Below are positions 5,359-60,486 of a stretch of DNA of 64,000 nucleotides, piece after piece. Source of the DNA: Escherichia phage ime. The DNA lies in sequence record MN850576.1. One strand, 5' to 3'. The notes under the pieces were generated by a model. It was not told the origin of the DNA, made no database searches, and saw only the letters and a program-made list of their open reading frames with translations. The position numbers were made by a program, and so were the translations under genes. Positions within the stretch are counted from its first letter, which is position 1; the number at the start of each line of letters is the position of its first letter.

Positions 5359-5435
5359 TGGTCTCCACGGAGTGATTCGAACACTCGACCTCCTGATCCC
5401 AAATCAGGCGCTCTACCAAGCTGAGCTACGCGGAG
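5359..5435 (-). tRNA. tRNA-Pro (anticodon TGG)
   Basis: Manual cloverleaf: C1-G72 acceptor (typical of Pro), D-arm TAGCTCAGCTTGGTAGAGC, anticodon stem CCTGA/TCAGG with loop TTTGGGA, T-loop TTCGAAT, encoded CCA. Confidence 0.85.
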
Positions 5436-5446
5436 TATTTATTATT

Positions 5447-5521
5447 TGGTGGCCCTGGGTGGAATTGAACCACCGTCTGGCGATTATGAGTCGCTTGCTT
5501 GAACCTTCCAGCTACAGGGCC
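5447..5521 (-). tRNA. tRNA-Met (anticodon CAT; elongator-type or Ile-CAT not distinguishable)
   Basis: Manual fold: acceptor GGCCCTG/CAGGGCC, anticodon loop CTCATAA, T-arm GGTGG-TTCAATT-CCACC, encoded CCA; G1-C72 pair argues against initiator. Confidence 0.75.
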
Positions 5522-5522
5522 A

Positions 5523-5598
5523 TGGTGCTGATGGCAGGACTTGAACCTGCAACCTATTGATTACAAATCAATTGCACTACCAATTGTGCTACATCAGC
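5523..5598 (-). tRNA. tRNA-Thr (anticodon TGT)
   Basis: Manual fold: acceptor GCTGATG/CATCAGC, D-stem GCAC/GTGC, anticodon stem ATTGA/TCAAT loop TTTGTAA, T-arm GCAGG-TTCAAGT-CCTGC, CCA. Confidence 0.85.
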
Positions 5599-5603
5599 AA
5601 AAA

Positions 5604-5702
5604 GGTGCTAGGTGATGGAATCGAACCACCTATGTATTCAACGACTACCTCGTCTATTTTCAGGATTAAAAATCCTCGCCCTTGCCAAAGGGCTTACCTA
5701 GC
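5604..5702 (-). tRNA. aberrant tRNA-like element (Lys-TTT-like anticodon arm; about 25-nt insertion in variable region); possible pseudo-tRNA
   Basis: Perfect 7-bp acceptor GCTAGGT/ACCTAGC, D-arm GCCC-TTTGGCAA-GGGC, T-arm GGTGG-TTCGATT-CCATC, anticodon arm AGGA-TTTTTAA-TCCT; about 30 nt between anticodon and T arms; CC but no terminal A encoded. Confidence 0.4.
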
Positions 5703-5800
5703 TCAGTATGTTGACCATGTTGCTAGTCGGCGATGACGACTGTAACATTTGATAATCCGGTTCTGCTTCCGGCTTTCGCTTAATTACAAGGTCAACAATA

Positions 5801-5891
5801 TGGCTGAGGGTAATGGAATCGAACCATCATCAAGTCATCCTCAACGGGACGGTTTTCAAGACCGCTTGAGCACCATTGCTCCCTACCCTCA
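5801..5891 (-). tRNA. tRNA-Ser (anticodon TGA), type II with long variable arm
   Basis: Manual fold: acceptor TGAGGGT/ACCCTCA, anticodon stem GCGGT/ACCGT loop CTTGAAA, long variable arm, T-loop TTCGATT, encoded CCA; 91 nt. Confidence 0.8.
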
Positions 5892-6005
5892 TTTATAAAC
5901 AATACTGATAATGACACTGATTTTCGAGCAGTTAGTGACTAGTATAAACGACGATAAATATCAATGCCATTATCTGTATGATTTATGCATTTAAAACTAT
6001 AAATT

Positions 6006-6092
6006 TGGTGGGGAGTGGTGGAGTCGAACCACCCGAGTCGCAATGACAATAGATTTACAGTCTACACCGCTACCCCTACGGGATAACTCCCC
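6006..6092 (-). tRNA. tRNA-Tyr (anticodon GTA), type II
   Basis: Anticodon arm GTAGA-CTGTAAA-TCTAT, variable arm about 15 nt, T-arm GGTGG-TTCGACT-CCACC, acceptor GGGGAGT/ACTCCCC, CCA; resembles bacterial tRNA-Tyr layout. Confidence 0.8.
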
Positions 6093-6096
6093 AATT

Positions 6097-6171
6097 TGGC
6101 ACCCCGTACTGGACTCGAACCAGTGTCAACGGCTTAGAAGGCCGCTGCTTTATCCACTAAGCTAACAGGGC
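6097..6171 (-). tRNA. tRNA-Arg (anticodon TCT)
   Basis: Acceptor GCCCTGT/ACGGGGT (2 G-U pairs), D-stem GCTT/AAGC, anticodon stem GCGGC/GCCGT loop CTTCTAA, T-arm ACTGG-TTCGAGT-CCAGT, CCA. Confidence 0.8.
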
Positions 6172-8523: not shown

Positions 8524-8555
8524 ATTATTTAGTTATTTTAGTTATATTCTTTATG

Positions 8556-8636
8556 TGTCCGTATCACGGACAGTTAGTGTCCGTATTACGGGCAGATGTG
8601 TCCGCGTGACGGACAGTAGTGTCCGTATCACGGACA
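8556..8636. repeat. array of four phased 17-bp palindromes TGTCCGYRTNACGGRCA (operator- or iteron-like)
   Basis: Copies at 8556-8572, 8578-8594, 8599-8615, 8620-8636 (21-22 bp period) plus degenerate fifth copy about 8643-8662; half-sites TGTCCGT / ACGGACA. Confidence 0.8.
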
Positions 8637-8711
8637 GTTAATAGTATCCGTTCCATGGCGAACATAAAACATACGAATCCTTATAGTACAGATATTTAAG
8701 TTTTTACTGGT

Positions 8712-48993: not shown

Positions 48994-49251
48994 GCCATGC
49001 CATTCGTTTGCATGACAATAATTATACATGACAATAATCGCACTGATTATAATTAGCATGACATAATATAAAAGCAGGGCAACTATTAGCAGATCTATAG
49101 TTGCCTTGCTTGTTATGTCATGATTAACTAAATACAAGGCAACTATGATCTGATTAATAGTTTGCAGACAAACTATCACGGGGGTGATGGTTACTGCTTT
49201 TATATTATGTCGCGACTCCGTCGCGCCATGCCATTCGTTTGCATAGTTGCC
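48994..49251. repeat. composite repeat: 20-bp direct repeat, 18-20 bp inverted repeat, four GGCAACTAT/ATAGTTGCC copies
   Basis: GCCATGCCATTCGTTTGCAT at 48994-49013 and 49225-49244; ATGACATAATATAAAAGCAG 49058-49077 vs its reverse complement 49194-49211; GGCAACTAT at 49078, 49138 and ATAGTTGCC at 49097, 49243. Confidence 0.7.
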
Positions 49252-52860: not shown

Positions 52861-52878
52861 GGCGGGAAGTATTCCCGC
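52861..52878 (-). promoter_or_regulatory. leader palindrome GGCGGGAA-N3-TTCCCGC (copy 1 of 3)
   Basis: Inverted repeat about 20 nt upstream of a minus-strand start codon; see copies at 56939 and 58828. Confidence 0.45.
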
Positions 52879-53870: not shown

Positions 53871-53902
53871 AAAATAATAAAGGCTATGCAACCGCATAGC
53901 CT
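53871..53902 (-). terminator. rho-independent terminator (minus strand)
   Basis: On minus strand AAGGCTATGC-GGTT-GCATAGCCTT followed by TATTATTTT. Confidence 0.5.
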
Positions 53903-53939
53903 TTATGTGATTATATCGCTGCAGGCCCTGCCAGGGGCC

Positions 53940-54628: not shown

Positions 54629-54651
54629 TGATTATTTTAACAGGGTTTAAA

Positions 54652-54696
54652 TTTACTTTATTGATGGCCCTGGAGTCAAGGCCATCTAAAAATAAA
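54652..54696. repeat. 45-bp exact repeat containing a hairpin (copy 1)
   Basis: TTTACTTTATTGATGGCCCTGGAGTCAAGGCCATCTAAAAATAAA; identical to 58367-58411; lies 2 nt beyond a minus-strand stop codon. Confidence 0.8.
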
Positions 54697-54698
54697 TT

Positions 54699-54899
54699 TT
54701 ACAGGCCTACAATCTCTTTAATTCGTTTTACTGCTGCCTCAGCGCCTTGAGGGTAAAAATTATGGTAACCAATCACGCGAGTGATACTAATCGCCGTTTG
54801 ATGATCTTCATAATCACCTTTAAAGATTTCTTGACCGTCAATCAGCACGGCAATTTTTTCTTCTTTTTTGAAGTTAATAACGCGGATATTGTTGCTCAT
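54699..54899 (-). CDS. hypothetical protein
   Basis: 66-aa ORF. Confidence 0.35.
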   Translation of the reverse strand: MSNNIRVINFKKEEKIAVLIDGQEIFKGDYEDHQTAISITRVIGYHNFYPQGAEAAVKRIKEIVGL

Positions 54900-55379
54900 T
54901 TTGTTTCTCCTTTTGGAACTTTGTCTATGCGGTGGGGAGTGTCTCCCCGTTGATTGTTATTATCCATATTCTGGATCGGATTGCAACACTCAGGGAGAAA
55001 AAAATTTGAAAAGTTAGGCCCCCATGATCGGGGGCCGTTCTTAGTTACTTACAGCGATAAAGTACATCCCTACGCCTAGCAATATTTCAAGGGCGATAAT
55101 CTCAAGCCATACCATAACGCGGCGCACCTTATCGGTGCATGGCTTATCCTTGGTTGTCATCGTCTCCCCCTTTCCTTCTGGTAGTAGTGACGCGATCTAC
55201 AATGGCCCCCAGGAGTCCTATCACGACACACACCACAAGAAAAATTATCTCCGCTGTTGTTCGATCCATTGTTATAAAATTCCTCAAGATCAGGCCTGAA
55301 AATAAAGCGTTCGTTATTGAATCCGTCACGCCAGGCGGCTGGCTTCAAATCTCCACTAAAGGGATTAATTAACGTGGCA

Positions 55380-56938: not shown

Positions 56939-56957
56939 GGCGGGAAGTTTTCCCGCC
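56939..56957 (-). promoter_or_regulatory. leader palindrome GGCGGGAA-GTT-TTCCCGCC (copy 2 of 3)
   Basis: Perfect 8-bp arms; between predicted promoter and SD of gene 56287-56910. Confidence 0.5.
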
Positions 56958-57427: not shown

Positions 57428-57455
57428 AATAAAAAGCCCCGCACAATGGCGGGGC
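57428..57455 (-). terminator. rho-independent terminator (minus strand)
   Basis: On minus strand GCCCCGC-CATTGT-GCGGGGC followed by TTTTTATTT. Confidence 0.55.
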
Positions 57456-57685: not shown

Positions 57686-58004
57686 TATTGGCCTGAATAG
57701 CCCGGATACGGCGCTTTATAACTTCCTGATCTGTGTGGTCGTATCCCCAAAAGTCTACAATTTTTGCGCCCCCCGCCTTCAGGCGGTATAGTGTTTCCTG
57801 CATTTTGTAAGCCGGGATCGGTCGCGGTGTTACTTGGTCACCTTCTTTATTTTTATACTTTATAATATAATCTTCGTTATCGTTGAATGCCCAAAATGGA
57901 TATTCTGCAAGGGCGGTACTTCCTCTTTCCTTTTTATCCTGGATCTTATTTACAATTAAAGCCGTAGCAATAGCGCCAATAATAAAACTTGCCCCGCTGA
58001 TCAT
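57651..58004 (-). CDS. membrane-anchored protein
   Basis: N-terminal ISGASFIIGAIATALIV hydrophobic segment. Confidence 0.4.
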   Translation of the reverse strand: MISGASFIIGAIATALIVNKIQDKKERGSTALAEYPFWAFNDNEDYIIKYKNKEGDQVTPRPIPAYKMQETLYRLKAGGAKIVDFWGYDHTDQEVIKRRIRAIQANIEVSKGGIYEN

Positions 58005-58077
58005 GTACTTTCTCCTTTCATGGTGTTAATAAATTATCTTTATAGATGGCCCTGCAACCAGGACCACCGAAAAATAA

Positions 58078-58323
58078 CTATTTCACAATGCCTACAAAAC
58101 AGATCCCGCCTTCACCTATATAAGCAATATCGGTCACTTTATAACTTGTCAAGATCTGCTTATTTAGTTCATTAATAAAATCGGTCATTGCGTTGGTGTA
58201 GTTGTCTTCCGTGTCTAAGGCATAATCCCAGGTGTACACCTTTTTACGTCCGAAGCCTTTTACCATGATACGGGCGCTTTTGGTGTTGGTAGGGGCATAA
58301 TATTTGGTGATTAGTGCTGCCAT
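58078..58323 (-). CDS. hypothetical protein
   Basis: 81-aa ORF. Confidence 0.4.
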   Translation of the reverse strand: MAALITKYYAPTNTKSARIMVKGFGRKKVYTWDYALDTEDNYTNAMTDFINELNKQILTSYKVTDIAYIGEGGICFVGIVK

Positions 58324-58366
58324 GGTTTTAACTCCTATGCATTAGTTCAGTGTTAACAGTATAAAG

Positions 58367-58411
58367 TTTACTTTATTGATGGCCCTGGAGTCAAGGCCAT
58401 CTAAAAATAAA
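58367..58411. repeat. 45-bp exact repeat containing a hairpin (copy 2)
   Basis: Identical to 54652-54696; lies 1 nt beyond stop codon of gene 58413-58808. Confidence 0.8.
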
Positions 58412-58412
58412 C

Positions 58413-58808
58413 TCAATAAGTTTTTAGTACTTTCCCGTCCAATCTGTCAAGCTGGATCTCGATAGCTGCAGAAAACCTATTGTAAACCACATCGCCCAGG
58501 GAGTCCAGCCAATCTATGACGTTATATACCTGCTCTTTATTCTTGCAAGTCCGGATCCGTTTCATTACGTAAGACGGATCAATATTAGCGCTCTCGTTGT
58601 TGTGGTCCTGCGCCTGGCCTGCTGCGCTAGTTATAGATTTTACAACCACCTGAAAGGGCTTTAAGGTGCCTTTTGCGTTCATCTCACGCGCTTTTGCGGC
58701 GCGGTTGTTATATGTTACACAACGGCGGCAAATGTTGACCAAATGCATATCAATAATTTTTTCATCGTTTGCCAGTTCGTTCATGATGCGGCGTACGTTC
58801 TTATTCAT
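58413..58808 (-). CDS. hypothetical protein
   Basis: 131-aa ORF; SD AAGGA; leader palindrome upstream. Confidence 0.45.
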   Translation of the reverse strand: MNKNVRRIMNELANDEKIIDMHLVNICRRCVTYNNRAAKAREMNAKGTLKPFQVVVKSITSAAGQAQDHNNESANIDPSYVMKRIRTCKNKEQVYNVIDWLDSLGDVVYNRFSAAIEIQLDRLDGKVLKTY

Positions 58809-58827: not shown

Positions 58828-58846
58828 GGCGGGAAACATTCCCGCC
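58828..58846 (-). promoter_or_regulatory. leader palindrome GGCGGGAA-ACA-TTCCCGCC (copy 3 of 3)
   Basis: Perfect 8-bp arms 20 nt upstream of start codon at 58806-58808. Confidence 0.5.
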
Positions 58847-58890
58847 TTTTGTGTCTAGTTTACTTAAATTTTGCAGCGTGTCAATGATTT

Positions 58891-59629: not shown

Positions 59630-60304
59630 CGATTATTTTAAATTATTTTTATGATAGAATCCACCTGCCGCCCCCGCCAGGTTAACCACCATTTTTTCGT
59701 ACTCTTCTTTATGTTCCCGCGCTTCTGTATCATTAATCACTACATTTCCCAGGTGAGTAGCATTACCTTTCATTTTTGTACCTCCTCTTCAATTGTTTAC
59801 CCTACAGCATGGGCCTACCAGGTTTGCAAGATTTCACCCTCTCCCACCTGGTCAGTTAGGTCCTGCCAGGCTGGCCCCGCCAGGTTGCAACGGTTAGCGC
59901 ATCAGGTTAGAAAAATTTTTTGAAAAGGTGTTGACAGCGGCCCCGCCAGGGGGCACAATATACCTATCGAAAGGACGGCAGGCACCGGTGACGGTGGAGA
60001 CAACCACCGGGGATGGGCGCTGCATAAAATGAGAACGGTTATCATTATCATTTAAAAATTTATGCAAAAAATCCTTGCCTTCTTTGTCCTGTGTGATACT
60101 ATAATAACAAGCCGGGGCAACAGGGGCCGGGAGACAATCACCGGGCCTGCCCGTTATTCTGCAAACGAGAATGATTATCATTCAAAATTCTAAATGAGAA
60201 CTCCTCGCATTTAATAAATTTAATTAGCATGCTAATTACCCTCCGTAACAATTTCCTATAAAACAGTATCCCATAAAATATTCCCATATAGAAATTTTAA
60301 AAAT

Positions 60305-60486
60305 CCATTTCTGAAAACGAAAAATCGATTTCGTCCCCAAAAATTTCAGGTCGAGAGCTGGAACGATTTCCAGAAAATCCGATTCAGAAAACGAAAAACA
60401 GATCGAGTACTTGGAAATTTATCGAGAAAAATTTTCAGAAAATTCAATCTTTGAAACGAAAAACAGATCGAGTACTTGGAAAGCTG
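60305..60486. repeat. tandem direct repeats, about 66-bp period, 2.5 copies
   Basis: AAACGAAAAACAGATCGAGTACTTGGAAA at 60388-60417 and 60454-60483 nearly identical; degenerate copy at 60314-60345; TTCAGAAAA sub-motif recurs. Confidence 0.75.

What the first reader, a model, noticed from the sequence alone, without database searches (positions are those of the whole stretch)
54652..54696. 45-bp exact repeat with internal hairpin immediately after two stop codons
TTTACTTTATTGATGGCCCTGGAGTCAAGGCCATCTAAAAATAAA is identical at 54652-54696 and 58367-58411, each 1-2 nt beyond the stop of a minus-strand gene. The hairpin (GATGGCC...GGCCATC) lacks a canonical U-tract on the coding strand, so it may be an RNase processing or stabilising element or a non-canonical terminator; exact identity suggests recent copying or strong constraint.
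Basis: seen in the sequence. Interest (0 to 1): 0.45.

Follow-up and report, generated by a model that had tools for sequence, protein, structure and literature searches.

The report
Repeated intercistronic RNA hairpin in rV5-like phage
The 45-base repeat is real and belongs to a small family of conserved RNA hairpins between early genes of rV5-like coliphages; they look like phage T7's RNase III cutting sites and also act as breakpoints where gene cassettes are lost or exchanged.

Summary
The window is a Vequintavirus (rV5-like) coliphage.

On the coding (minus) strand each copy folds into a two-tier hairpin:
- an 11-bp A/U lower stem that overlaps the upstream stop codon
- a small internal loop
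- a 10-bp G/C upper stem and a tetraloop

In 38 unique sequences from 17 genomes, 96% of cells are paired (85% on the other strand). Four lower-stem pairs change on both sides, and the loop's last two positions vary freely.

There is no U-tract on either strand, and the elements lie inside operons that have their own promoters and canonical terminators. The anatomy matches T7 RNase III sites R0.3, R0.5 and R1.1, and type A carries the canonical UA/UG distal box. An RNase III processing site is therefore my best reading (about 0.45). It is inferred from anatomy, not shown.

Copy 2 is a recombinant: 621 bp (two genes) between two ancestral copies are deleted. A phi92-like phage shares a promoter-gene-hairpin module that ends at the element, which resembles T4 PeSLs.

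The family has 3-4 copies per genome and is lineage-restricted. I rate it a new member of a known kind, of moderate interest.

The parts
54649..54699 (-). Type A element, site c1. Full two-tier hairpin: lower stem 54689-54699 with 54649-54659, upper stem-loop 54663-54686.
   Evidence: Fold of -23.6 kcal/mol, z = -5.8, versus -16.0 on the + strand. Covariance-model score 87.4 bits.
58364..58414 (-). Type A element, fused copy c2f (upper stem-loop 58378-58401). It is the recombinant junction of ancestral copies c2a and c2b. The two genes (621 bp) that lie between them in EdH4, Alma and rV5 are missing here.
   Evidence: Fold of -26.5 kcal/mol, z = -5.9. EdH4 has copies at L001 6365-6409 and 6986-7030. 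BLAST of the junction gives two matches that overlap by 49 nt of the query.
58032..58079 (-). Type B element (upper stem-loop 58045-58068): a diverged family member with the same architecture, located after the 81-aa gene.
   Evidence: Fold of -24.6 kcal/mol versus -10.6 on the + strand. Covariance-model score 73.5 bits. Present at the same site in 16 of the 16 Vequintavirus genomes checked.
54659..54660 (-). Predicted RNase III scissile bond at c1 (...GGCCAUCAAU|AAAG...), placed by analogy with T7 ...GGCCUUUAU|GAU.
   Evidence: Inference from the anatomical comparison. Not tested.
58374..58375 (-). Predicted RNase III scissile bond at c2f.
   Evidence: Inference, as above.
58041..58042 (-). 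Predicted RNase III scissile bond in type B (...GGCCAUCUAU|AAAG...).
   Evidence: Inference, as above. The 3' bulge UAU is identical to that of T7 R0.3, R0.5 and R1.1.
54650..54679 (-). Sigma70-like hexamers embedded in type A c1: TTGACT (in the loop) - N18 - TAAATT.
   Evidence: Consensus scan, 9 of 12 matches with an 18-nt spacer. The same site is annotated 'promoter' by PhagePromoter in phage Gotham.
58365..58394 (-). Sigma70-like hexamers embedded in type A c2f: TTGACT - N18 - TAAACT.
54699..54899 (-). 66-aa gene whose stop codon lies in the base of element c1.
   Evidence: ORF list. Matches phrog_12347, function unknown.
58413..58808 (-). 131-aa gene whose stop codon lies in the base of element c2f.
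   Evidence: phrog_13245, function unknown.
58078..58323 (-). 81-aa gene flanked by type A upstream and type B downstream.
   Evidence: phrog_3199, function unknown.
58828..58884 (-). Head of the cassette closed by c2f: strong sigma70 promoter TTGACA-N16-TAAACT (58857-58884) followed by the 5' leader hairpin GGCGGGAAUGUUUCCCGCC (58828-58846).
54930..54986 (-). Head of the cassette closed by c1: promoter TTGCAA-N16-GATAAT (54959-54986) followed by a 5' leader hairpin (54930-54952).
57436..57455 (-). Canonical intrinsic terminator (GCCCCGC...GCGGGGC followed by UUUUUAUUUC) that ends the operon containing c2f and type B.
53877..53906 (-). Canonical terminator-like hairpin with a U-rich tail that ends the operon containing c1.
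   Evidence: Annotated as a terminator in EdH4 and Alma.

Best explanation
The repeat is the DNA image of a conserved intercistronic RNA hairpin in early operons of Vequintavirus (rV5-like) coliphages. Read-through transcripts from upstream sigma70 promoters contain it. On that RNA it forms about two helical turns of duplex: an 11-bp A/U lower stem that starts in the upstream stop codon, a 2 x 3-nt internal loop, a 10-bp G/C upper stem and a tetraloop. I propose that host RNase III recognises this as it recognises the T7 early processing signals. It would cut in the 3' side of the internal loop (...GGCCAUCAAU|AAAG...), separating the cistrons, and leave the upstream one-gene mRNA with a protective 3' hairpin. 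That mRNA already begins with a 5' hairpin. Because the copies are near-identical DNA repeats a few hundred bases to a few kilobases apart, they are also substrates for homologous recombination. That recombination homogenises the copies, deletes or inserts the genes between them, and marks the edge of a module exchanged with a phi92-like phage. Shown: the repeat, the strand-specific conserved structure, the operon context, the deletion junction and the module boundary. Inferred: transcription through the element, RNase III cleavage and its position, and the stabilising effect.
For: - Fold: -23.6 to -26.5 kcal/mol on the coding strand (z about -5.8) versus -10.6 to -17.2 on the other strand. 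The diverged type B copy folds this way only on the coding strand.
- 38 unique sequences from 17 genomes: 96.2% of cells are paired, versus 36-58% when 3' partners are slid, and 85.2% on the opposite strand.
- Four lower-stem pairs change on both sides, for example G-C 15 / A-U 14 / G.U 5, and U-A / U.G / C-G.
- The upper stem is 100% paired, with four pairs varying only through G.U.
- G.U pairs occur at 9 pair positions and A.C at 3.
- RNAalifold independently predicts the same fold.
- The last two loop positions vary freely while the stems are kept.
- No U-tract follows the hairpin, and it is not listed as terminator-like on either strand. The operons carry their own strong promoters and canonical terminators, so the elements are intercistronic.
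- T7 R0.3, R0.5 and R1.1 fold into the same layout: an upper stem of about 10 bp with G.U pairs, a 4-5-nt loop, and a 3' bulge UAU at the known cut, above a lower stem. The stop codon of T7 gene 0.4 lies in the base of R0.5, as here.
- Published rules (PMC1540722): two helical turns; internal loops restrict cutting to one bond and leave a protective 3' hairpin; distal box U-A then U.G; no G-C at pb2 or pb4. Type A has U-A / U.G at the pairs corresponding to those of R1.1, A-U at pb2 and no pair at pb4.
- Intergenic regions within transcripts are preferred RNase III targets in vivo (PMC6212723).
- The conserved, covarying A/U lower stem is needed for an RNase III substrate but not for a simple terminator or exonuclease block.
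Against: - No transcript-end or cleavage data exist for any Vequintavirus in the searched literature.
- Proximal-box positions 1 and 3 differ from the R1.1 optimum (U-A and G-C instead of G-C and A-U).
- Type B has C-G instead of U.G at distal-box position 2 and G.U at pb2, although T7 R0.5 also has U-A / C-G.
- The internal loop (2 x 3 nt) is smaller than in R1.1, so cutting on both strands, which would destabilise the upstream mRNA, cannot be excluded.
- The covariation rests on few independent events among closely related, recombining genomes.
- In type A, loop positions 1-2 (AC) and the U.G pair are invariant, which a -35 hexamer TTGAC would also explain.
- The T7 cleavage coordinates were taken from my memory of Dunn & Studier 1983, not from a tool.
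Confidence: 0.45

Rival explanations
1. PeSL-like composite terminator/promoter. The hairpin attenuates transcription coming from the upstream one-gene cassette. The sigma70-like promoter embedded in type A (UP-like A/T tract, TTGACN in the loop, N18, TAAAYT) restarts transcription for the next gene. The repeats promote cassette shuffling, as described for T4-type phages. This can coexist with RNA processing.
For: - The layout matches the published PeSL description: stop codon in an AT-rich stretch, a stem-loop that may overlap the -35, then the SD and start codon (PMC2839356 section 13; PMC4122927).
- The type A hexamers score 9 of 12, and PhagePromoter calls the site in Gotham.
- TTGAC is retained in 43 of 44 type A copies, while the sixth -35 position and the next base vary.
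- Each type A element closes a one-gene unit of promoter, 5' hairpin and gene.
- There is a 621-bp indel between copies and a module boundary in KKE7M.
Against: - Type B keeps the whole hairpin but has no usable -35 (CTGGTT-N17-GATAAT) and is not listed by the scan.
- The 18-nt spacer and 9-of-12 score fall in the class mostly expected by chance (33 found versus 21.7 expected).
- Two type A copies have 19- or 20-nt spacers yet keep the fold.
- The variable -10 position covaries with the 5' arm (A-U versus G-C), which pairing explains and a promoter does not.
- There is no U-tract for intrinsic termination.
- There are only 3-4 copies per genome, against about 50 PeSLs in RB49/phi1.
Confidence: 0.2
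2. Passive mRNA 3' stabiliser. The hairpin is not cut. It simply stalls 3'-5' exonucleases, so the upstream cistron outlives the downstream ones, as REP hairpins do in malE-malF. That would set different expression levels within the operon.
For: - A stable G/C hairpin immediately after the stop codon, in an intercistronic position, conserved on the coding strand.
- The upstream gene also carries a 5' hairpin, which suggests selection for stable monocistronic segments.
Against: A 10-bp G/C hairpin alone would be enough for this. It does not explain the conserved, covarying A/U lower stem, the fixed internal loop, or the total of about two helical turns.
Confidence: 0.15
3. Binding site for a phage-encoded RNA-binding or dsRNA-binding regulator that controls translation or decay of the neighbouring early genes.
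For: - Loop positions 1-2 are invariant in both types (AC in type A; type B has G at position 1 and U at position 2 in all but one copy, ECP26 with GC), while positions 3-4 vary.
- The family is lineage-restricted, with only 3-4 sites per genome.
Against: - The element ends 15-27 nt upstream of the next SD, so it does not occlude the ribosome binding site.
- The flanking genes differ at every site and none has a known RNA-binding domain; all are PHROGs of unknown function.
- No candidate protein was identified.
Confidence: 0.07
4. A purely DNA-level element, such as a palindromic protein-binding or recombination site, with the RNA fold being incidental.
For: - It is an inverted repeat.
- Recombination between copies is demonstrated.
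- Loop variants are shuffled among sites.
Against: The asymmetries of the palindrome are almost all of the kind that gives G.U on the coding strand: 95 G.U cells at 9 pair positions versus 7 A.C cells at 3, and 96.2% versus 85.2% paired. A duplex-DNA site has no reason for that bias. Orientation and position relative to stop codons are fixed at every site.
Confidence: 0.05

Closest known systems
Phage T7 early RNase III processing signals (R0.3, R0.5, R1.1)
   Same: - Intercistronic hairpins in early polycistronic mRNA made by host RNA polymerase.
- An upper stem of about 10 bp with G.U pairs and a 4-5-nt loop.
- A 3-nt bulge on the 3' side (UAU in T7 and in type B, AAU in type A).
- A lower stem that brings the total to about two helical turns.
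- In R0.5 the upstream stop codon lies in the base of the hairpin.
- Type A has the U-A / U.G distal box of R1.1; type B has the U-A / C-G of R0.5.
   Different: - No detectable sequence homology beyond a shared GGCC in the 3' arm.
- The internal loop is smaller (2 x 3 nt).
- Proximal-box positions 1 and 3 are not the R1.1 optimum.
- There are only 3-4 sites, all within about 4.4 kb.
- Cleavage has not been demonstrated.
- The copies are near-identical repeats, which the T7 sites are not.
PeSLs (promoter-early stem-loops) of T4-type phages (Arbiol et al. 2010; Comeau et al. 2014)
   Same: - Repeated intergenic cassettes that start at the upstream stop codon in an AT-rich stretch and contain a stem-loop with G-T pairs.
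- They sit in regions of small genes of unknown function.
- Recombination between copies creates indels between close relatives.
- Type A carries sigma70-like hexamers with the stem-loop over the -35, which is one of the PeSL subclasses.
   Different: - A different phage lineage.
- 3-4 copies rather than about 50.
- The promoter is weak by consensus and absent from type B.
- The stem-loop is a long two-tier structure, not a short G-run/C-run hairpin.
- Terminator activity and mini-circles are untested here.
- In this window the stronger PeSL analogue is the separate unit of strong promoter plus 5' hairpin GGCGGGAA..UUCCCGCC.
Intercistronic REP/BIME stabiliser hairpins of E. coli (malE-malF)
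   Same: Repeated palindromic hairpins between cistrons, lacking a U-tract, that can protect upstream mRNA from 3' exonucleases.
   Different: - No sequence similarity.
- Absent from bacterial genomes.
- Phage-restricted, with few copies.
- Two-tier architecture.
Intrinsic (Rho-independent) terminators
   Same: A G/C-rich hairpin directly after a gene. It was annotated 'terminator' in phage Murica.
   Different: No U-tract on either strand. U-rich sequence precedes the stem and A-rich sequence follows it, on both strands. Canonical terminators occur elsewhere in the same operons.

Membership tests
E. coli RNase III processing signal, T7 R1.1 type | About two helical turns (~20-22 bp) of intramolecular duplex | tested here: met
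   10-bp upper stem plus 10-13-bp lower stem. 96% of cells paired. Requirement taken from PMC1540722 and PMC6212723.
E. coli RNase III processing signal, T7 R1.1 type | An internal loop or bulge that separates upper and lower stems, at the position of the single 3'-side cut | tested here: met
   The loop is 5' UA (or C) against 3' AAU / UAU, exactly 10 bp below the tetraloop, as in T7 R0.3, R0.5 and R1.1 folded. This tests anatomy only.
E. coli RNase III processing signal, T7 R1.1 type | Distal box U-A then U.G (PMC1540722) | tested here: met
   Type A: pairs 2 and 3 below the loop are U-A and U.G in all 30 unique type A sequences (columns 28/36 and 27/37). Type B has U-A / C-G, as in T7 R0.5. 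Mapping the box onto these pairs is my reading of the text combined with the R1.1 fold.
E. coli RNase III processing signal, T7 R1.1 type | Proximal box: G-C at pb1; A-U or U-A at pb2 (G-C blocks binding); A-U at pb3; no G-C at pb4 | tested here: inconclusive
   Type A: pb1 U-A (not optimal), pb2 A-U (met), pb3 G-C (not optimal), pb4 unpaired A/A (no antideterminant). Type B: pb2 is G.U. Natural substrates vary, so this neither confirms nor excludes membership.
E. coli RNase III processing signal, T7 R1.1 type | rnc-dependent cleavage in vivo or in vitro | not testable with these tools
   No transcript-end data for Vequintavirus were found.
PeSL (T4-type promoter-early stem-loop cassette) | Strong sigma70-like early promoter inside the repeat | tested here: inconclusive
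   Type A: TTGACN-N18-TAAAYT, 9 of 12 matches. Type B: no acceptable -35. Bona fide strong promoters in the same region score 10-11 of 12 with 16-17-nt spacers.
PeSL (T4-type promoter-early stem-loop cassette) | Stem-loop between the upstream stop codon (in an AT-rich stretch) and the downstream SD and start | tested here: met
   compared with the definition read.
PeSL (T4-type promoter-early stem-loop cassette) | Indels between close relatives that are bounded by copies | tested here: met
   A 621-bp, two-gene deletion lies exactly between copies c2a and c2b. Four deletion-bearing genomes sit on four different flank and loop haplotypes. The KKE7M module ends at the element.
PeSL (T4-type promoter-early stem-loop cassette) | Many copies (about 50) spread over hyperplastic regions of a T4-type genome | tested here: not met
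   3-4 copies within about 4.4 kb. No others were found in the window or in the rest of EdH4. The phage is Vequintavirinae, not T4-type.
Intrinsic terminator | U-tract immediately 3' of a G/C-rich hairpin | tested here: not met
   The sequence after the stem is AAUAAAGUAAA (coding strand) or UAAAAAUAAA (other strand). The element is not in the terminator-like list on either strand.
Bacterial REP/MITE-type mobile repeats | Numerous copies in bacterial chromosomes, in variable orientation and position | tested here: not met
   0 matches in 185,579 species-representative genomes. Metagenome hits lie only on contigs of about 137 kb that are Vequintavirus-like. Orientation and position after stop codons are fixed.
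Any Rfam family | Score at or above the family's gathering threshold | tested here: not met
   The best overlapping hits are rhtB at 23.1 bits (gathering score 55) and snoZ194 at 23.2 bits (gathering score 50), with E-values of 2.6-3.3.

The most novel reading that the evidence does not exclude
The hairpin is the 3' joint of self-contained, horizontally mobile one-gene expression cassettes: a strong sigma70 promoter, a 5' protective hairpin, an ORF and the 3' hairpin. It would have a dual life. As RNA it would be an RNase III or stability signal that makes each cassette's mRNA autonomous. As DNA it would carry a restart promoter and provide the homology that lets cassettes be excised, inserted and passed between phage subfamilies (Vequintavirinae to Stephanstirmvirinae). 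That would be a PeSL-like shuffling system that arose independently outside the T4 group.
Probability: 0.25. Interest if true: 0.55.

Novelty: new member of a known kind. Interest (0 to 1): 0.38.

Why it matters
The early regions of rV5-like phages consist almost entirely of genes of unknown function, and their expression logic is unstudied. These phages are used for O157 typing and for biocontrol, and they are part of the BASEL collection.

If the prediction holds, it would show that a large myovirus uses host RNase III in the T7 manner to cut early polycistronic mRNA into stabilised one-gene messages. It would also give exact coordinates to test.

The element already explains a recurrent two-gene presence/absence polymorphism among Vequintavirus genomes, and a gene transfer into a phi92-like phage. 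It would also correct inconsistent automatic annotations: 'promoter' in Gotham, 'terminator' in Murica, and nothing in rV5, EdH4 or Alma. For phage engineering, the copies mark natural, tolerated cassette insertion and deletion joints.

Tried and rejected
- **Intrinsic terminator:** rejected. There is no U-tract on either strand, the element is not in the scan list, and canonical terminators are present nearby.
- **Rfam:** nothing near threshold.
- **More family members:**
  - The covariance model with filters off found none in the window or in EdH4 12-88 kb.
  - IMG/VR gave only two Vequintavirus contigs.
  - Metagenomes gave only Vequintavirus-like contigs.
  - Bacterial genomes gave none.
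  - So no wider or more diverged family was available to strengthen the covariation.
- **MITE/REP idea:** rejected for the same reasons.
- **Function of flanking genes:** all eight proteins hit PHROGs of unknown function, so there is no clue to a partner protein.
- **Literature on transcript mapping in Vequintavirus, or a prior description of the element:** none found. The rV5 genome paper lists only sigma70 promoters and ARNold terminators.
- **Technical problems:**
  - My first regular expression missed most type B copies and was redone.
  - In alignment A2, the two type B sequences with five U's in the 5' arm are offset by one column, so a few 'not paired' cells are alignment artefacts.
  - The RefSeq T7 record does not annotate RNase III sites, so I used cleavage coordinates from memory.

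Full report
**Observation.** The 45-mer TTTACTTTATTGATGGCCCTGGAGTCAAGGCCATCTAAAAATAAA occurs exactly twice, at 54652-54696 and 58367-58411, and never in 100 shuffles. Genes here run on the minus strand. The repeats lie 2 nt and 1 nt beyond the stop codons of ORFs 54699..54899 and 58413..58808. A third copy, 77% identical, lies at 58031-58078, directly after the stop of ORF 58078..58323. A covariance model built from the copies finds these three and nothing else in the window with filters off.

**Source and distribution.**
- The region is 98.5-98.9% identical to Escherichia phages EdH4 and vB_Eco_Alma (Vequintavirus, rV5-like).
- A 63-nt query finds the element in 120 phage records at 346 places, usually 3 per genome. 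All are Vequintavirus except one Justusliebigvirus, KKE7M.
- It is absent from 185,579 bacterial species genomes. In IMG/VR and metagenomes it occurs only on Vequintavirus-sized contigs.
- Scanning the rest of EdH4 (12-88 kb) finds no further copy. The family therefore has 3-4 members per genome, all within about 4.4 kb of the early region.
- Rfam has no matching family.
- The rV5 genome paper does not mention it. Depositors left it unannotated in rV5, EdH4 and Alma. Elsewhere automatic tools labelled it 'promoter' in Gotham and 'terminator' in Murica.

**Structure.** On the coding (minus) strand, each copy folds into a two-tier hairpin:
- a 10-13-bp A/U-rich lower stem whose 5' arm begins in the upstream stop codon
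- an internal loop (5' UA or C, 3' AAU or UAU)
- a 10-bp G/C-rich upper stem (type A GAUGGCCUUG / CAGGGCCAUC; type B GGUGGUCCUG / CAGGGCCAUC)
- a tetraloop

Energies are -23.6 to -26.5 kcal/mol (z about -5.8) on the coding strand, against -10.6 to -17.2 on the other strand. The same holds for 29 instances from relatives.

I collected 59 instances (42 unique) from 17 genomes.
- On 38 unique sequences, 96.2% of cells form standard pairs, against 36-58% when partners are slid by 1-3 columns.
- Four lower-stem pairs change on both sides: G-C 15 / A-U 14 / G.U 5; U-A 29 / C-G 2 / U.G 1; and two A-U to U-A swaps between types.
- The upper stem is 100% paired, with four pairs varying only through G.U.
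- Type B has two haplotypes with U-A versus C-G at one pair, and JES2013 carries the U.G intermediate.
- On the opposite strand only 85.2% of cells pair. G.U occurs at 9 pair positions and A.C at 3.
- RNAalifold independently recovers the fold.
- Loop positions 3-4 vary freely: UC, AC, UU, GC, AU and CC in type A; UG, AG, AA and GG in type B.

I conclude that a coding-strand RNA structure is under selection. The caveat is that the genomes are close relatives that recombine, so the independent events are few.

**Context.**
- The scan shows strong sigma70 promoters and canonical U-tract terminators around the elements.
- One operon reads: promoter 58884-58857, 5' hairpin 58846-58828, 131-aa gene, type A, 81-aa gene, type B, 117-aa gene, 65-aa gene, terminator 57455-57436.
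- The other reads: terminator 55036-55017, promoter 54986-54959, 5' hairpin 54952-54930, 66-aa gene, type A, 99-aa gene, 116-aa gene, terminator 53906-53877.
- The elements are therefore intercistronic, and each type A copy closes a one-gene unit of promoter, 5' hairpin and gene.
- They are not listed as terminator-like on either strand. U-rich sequence precedes the stem and A-rich sequence follows it, on both strands.
- All flanking proteins belong to PHROGs of unknown function.

**Recombination.**
- EdH4 and Alma have type A copies at three sites (c1, c2a, c2b).
- The window lacks the 621 bp (113-aa and 39-aa genes) between c2a and c2b. Its copy 2 has the c2b left flank and the c2a right flank, and the two BLAST matches overlap by 49 nt of the query, inside the repeat.
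- Four genomes with this deletion (the window, an IMG/VR contig, magaca and ECP26) carry four different flank and loop haplotypes. This suggests recurrent events or spread by recombination.
- The same loop variants (UC, AC, UU, GC) turn up at all three sites in different genomes, which is the signature of exchange between copies.
- KKE7M, a phi92-like phage of another subfamily, shares a 475-bp module at 93% identity: the promoter (P192 of rV5), a 5' hairpin, the 113-aa gene and the element. Homology ends at the 3' end of the element.

**Mechanism.**
- I folded the T7 early RNase III sites. The cleavage coordinates 890, 1468, 3138, 5887 and 6450 come from my memory of Dunn & Studier 1983, and all fall in the intergenic gaps of the record.
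- R0.3, R0.5 and R1.1 each show an upper stem of about 10 bp with G.U pairs, a 4-5-nt loop, and a 3' bulge UAU at the cut, above a lower stem. The stop codon of gene 0.4 lies in the base of R0.5. The element has the same layout, and type B even has UAU.
- Pertzev & Nicholson (PMC1540722) state four relevant points. Substrates span about two helical turns. Internal loops restrict cutting to one bond and leave a protective 3' hairpin. The distal box is U-A then U.G. G-C at pb2 blocks binding, and G-C at pb4 blocks catalysis.
- Type A has U-A / U.G at the corresponding pairs, A-U at pb2 and no pair at pb4. Its pb1 and pb3 are not optimal. Type B has U-A / C-G, as in R0.5.
- Altuvia et al. (PMC6212723) found that intergenic regions within transcripts are preferred RNase III targets.
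- The conserved, covarying lower stem is what an RNase III substrate needs, and what a terminator or a simple exonuclease block does not.
- I therefore rank RNase III processing first, at about 0.45. I predict cuts after AAU or UAU, between 54660/54659, 58375/58374 and 58042/58041 on the minus strand.
- The direction of the effect is inferred. A single 3'-side cut would stabilise the upstream message; a double cut would destabilise it.

**Rivals.**
- **PeSL-like composite.** The PeSL description fits type A's layout, and TTGAC is retained in 43 of 44 type A copies while the sixth -35 position varies. So an embedded restart promoter is plausible and is not exclusive of processing. Against it: type B lacks a -35; the hexamers score only 9 of 12 with an 18-nt spacer; two copies have 19- or 20-nt spacers; and the variable -10 base covaries with the 5' arm.
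- **Lower-ranked rivals.** A passive stabiliser, a protein operator and a purely DNA-level site rank lower, for the reasons given under Rival explanations.

**Verdict.** The exact identity of the two copies is explained by recombination: copy 2 is a deletion junction. The element is a new, lineage-restricted member of known kinds: T7-type RNase III-like intercistronic hairpins, and PeSL-like recombinogenic cassettes. Interest is moderate.

Noticed in passing
window 52863-52877, 56941-56955, 58830-58844 (minus strand); L009 ~5760-5830: A second repeat family: the hairpin GGCGGGAA-N3-TTCCCGCC, about 10 nt downstream of the -10 of strong sigma70 promoters (TTGACA-N16-TAnACT). It would form the 5' end of the early mRNAs. 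Three were found against 0.01 expected by chance. The same promoter-plus-hairpin unit occurs in the phi92-like phage KKE7M. This is the closer analogue of T4 PeSLs and may act as a 5' mRNA stabiliser.
   Followed up: partly
window 8555-8640: Four tandem 21-22-nt units, each containing the palindrome GTGTCCGT..ACGGAC. This is the most stable local fold in the window, at -34.8 kcal/mol. Function unknown; it could be a protein-binding array or an origin-like element.
   Followed up: no
window 60287-60482: Three direct repeats of about 57 nt, spaced 65-74 nt apart, in a non-coding stretch (family D1).
   Followed up: no
window 49057-49152: A long AT-rich inverted repeat (36% GC) that folds at -28 to -31 kcal/mol on both strands. 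It may be a bidirectional terminator at a boundary between transcription units.
   Followed up: no
window 5359-6171 (minus strand): A cluster of seven tRNA genes. One is an odd 99-nt call with a 4-nt anticodon, at 5604-5702.
   Followed up: no
window ~58002-58022 (minus strand): A six-codon mini-ORF, ATGAAAGGAGAAAGTACATGA, lies just after type B. It contains the SD of the 117-aa gene, and its stop overlaps that gene's start codon (ATGA). This could be translational coupling or coincidence.
   Followed up: no
L014 10250-10273 (Campylobacter phage C9, UNVERIFIED record): The c1 copy has lost the 13-nt 3' arm of the lower stem. This is either a natural variant that shows the lower stem is dispensable, or an assembly error. 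Separately, 17 records named 'Campylobacter phage' are Vequintavirus genomes nearly identical to coliphages, so the stated host is doubtful.
   Followed up: no
L010 (rV5_ev146, 131.9 kb): This genome keeps only the c2a and type B copies. It lacks c1 and c2b, along with several kilobases of early genes. I did not check whether those deletions end at repeat copies.
   Followed up: no
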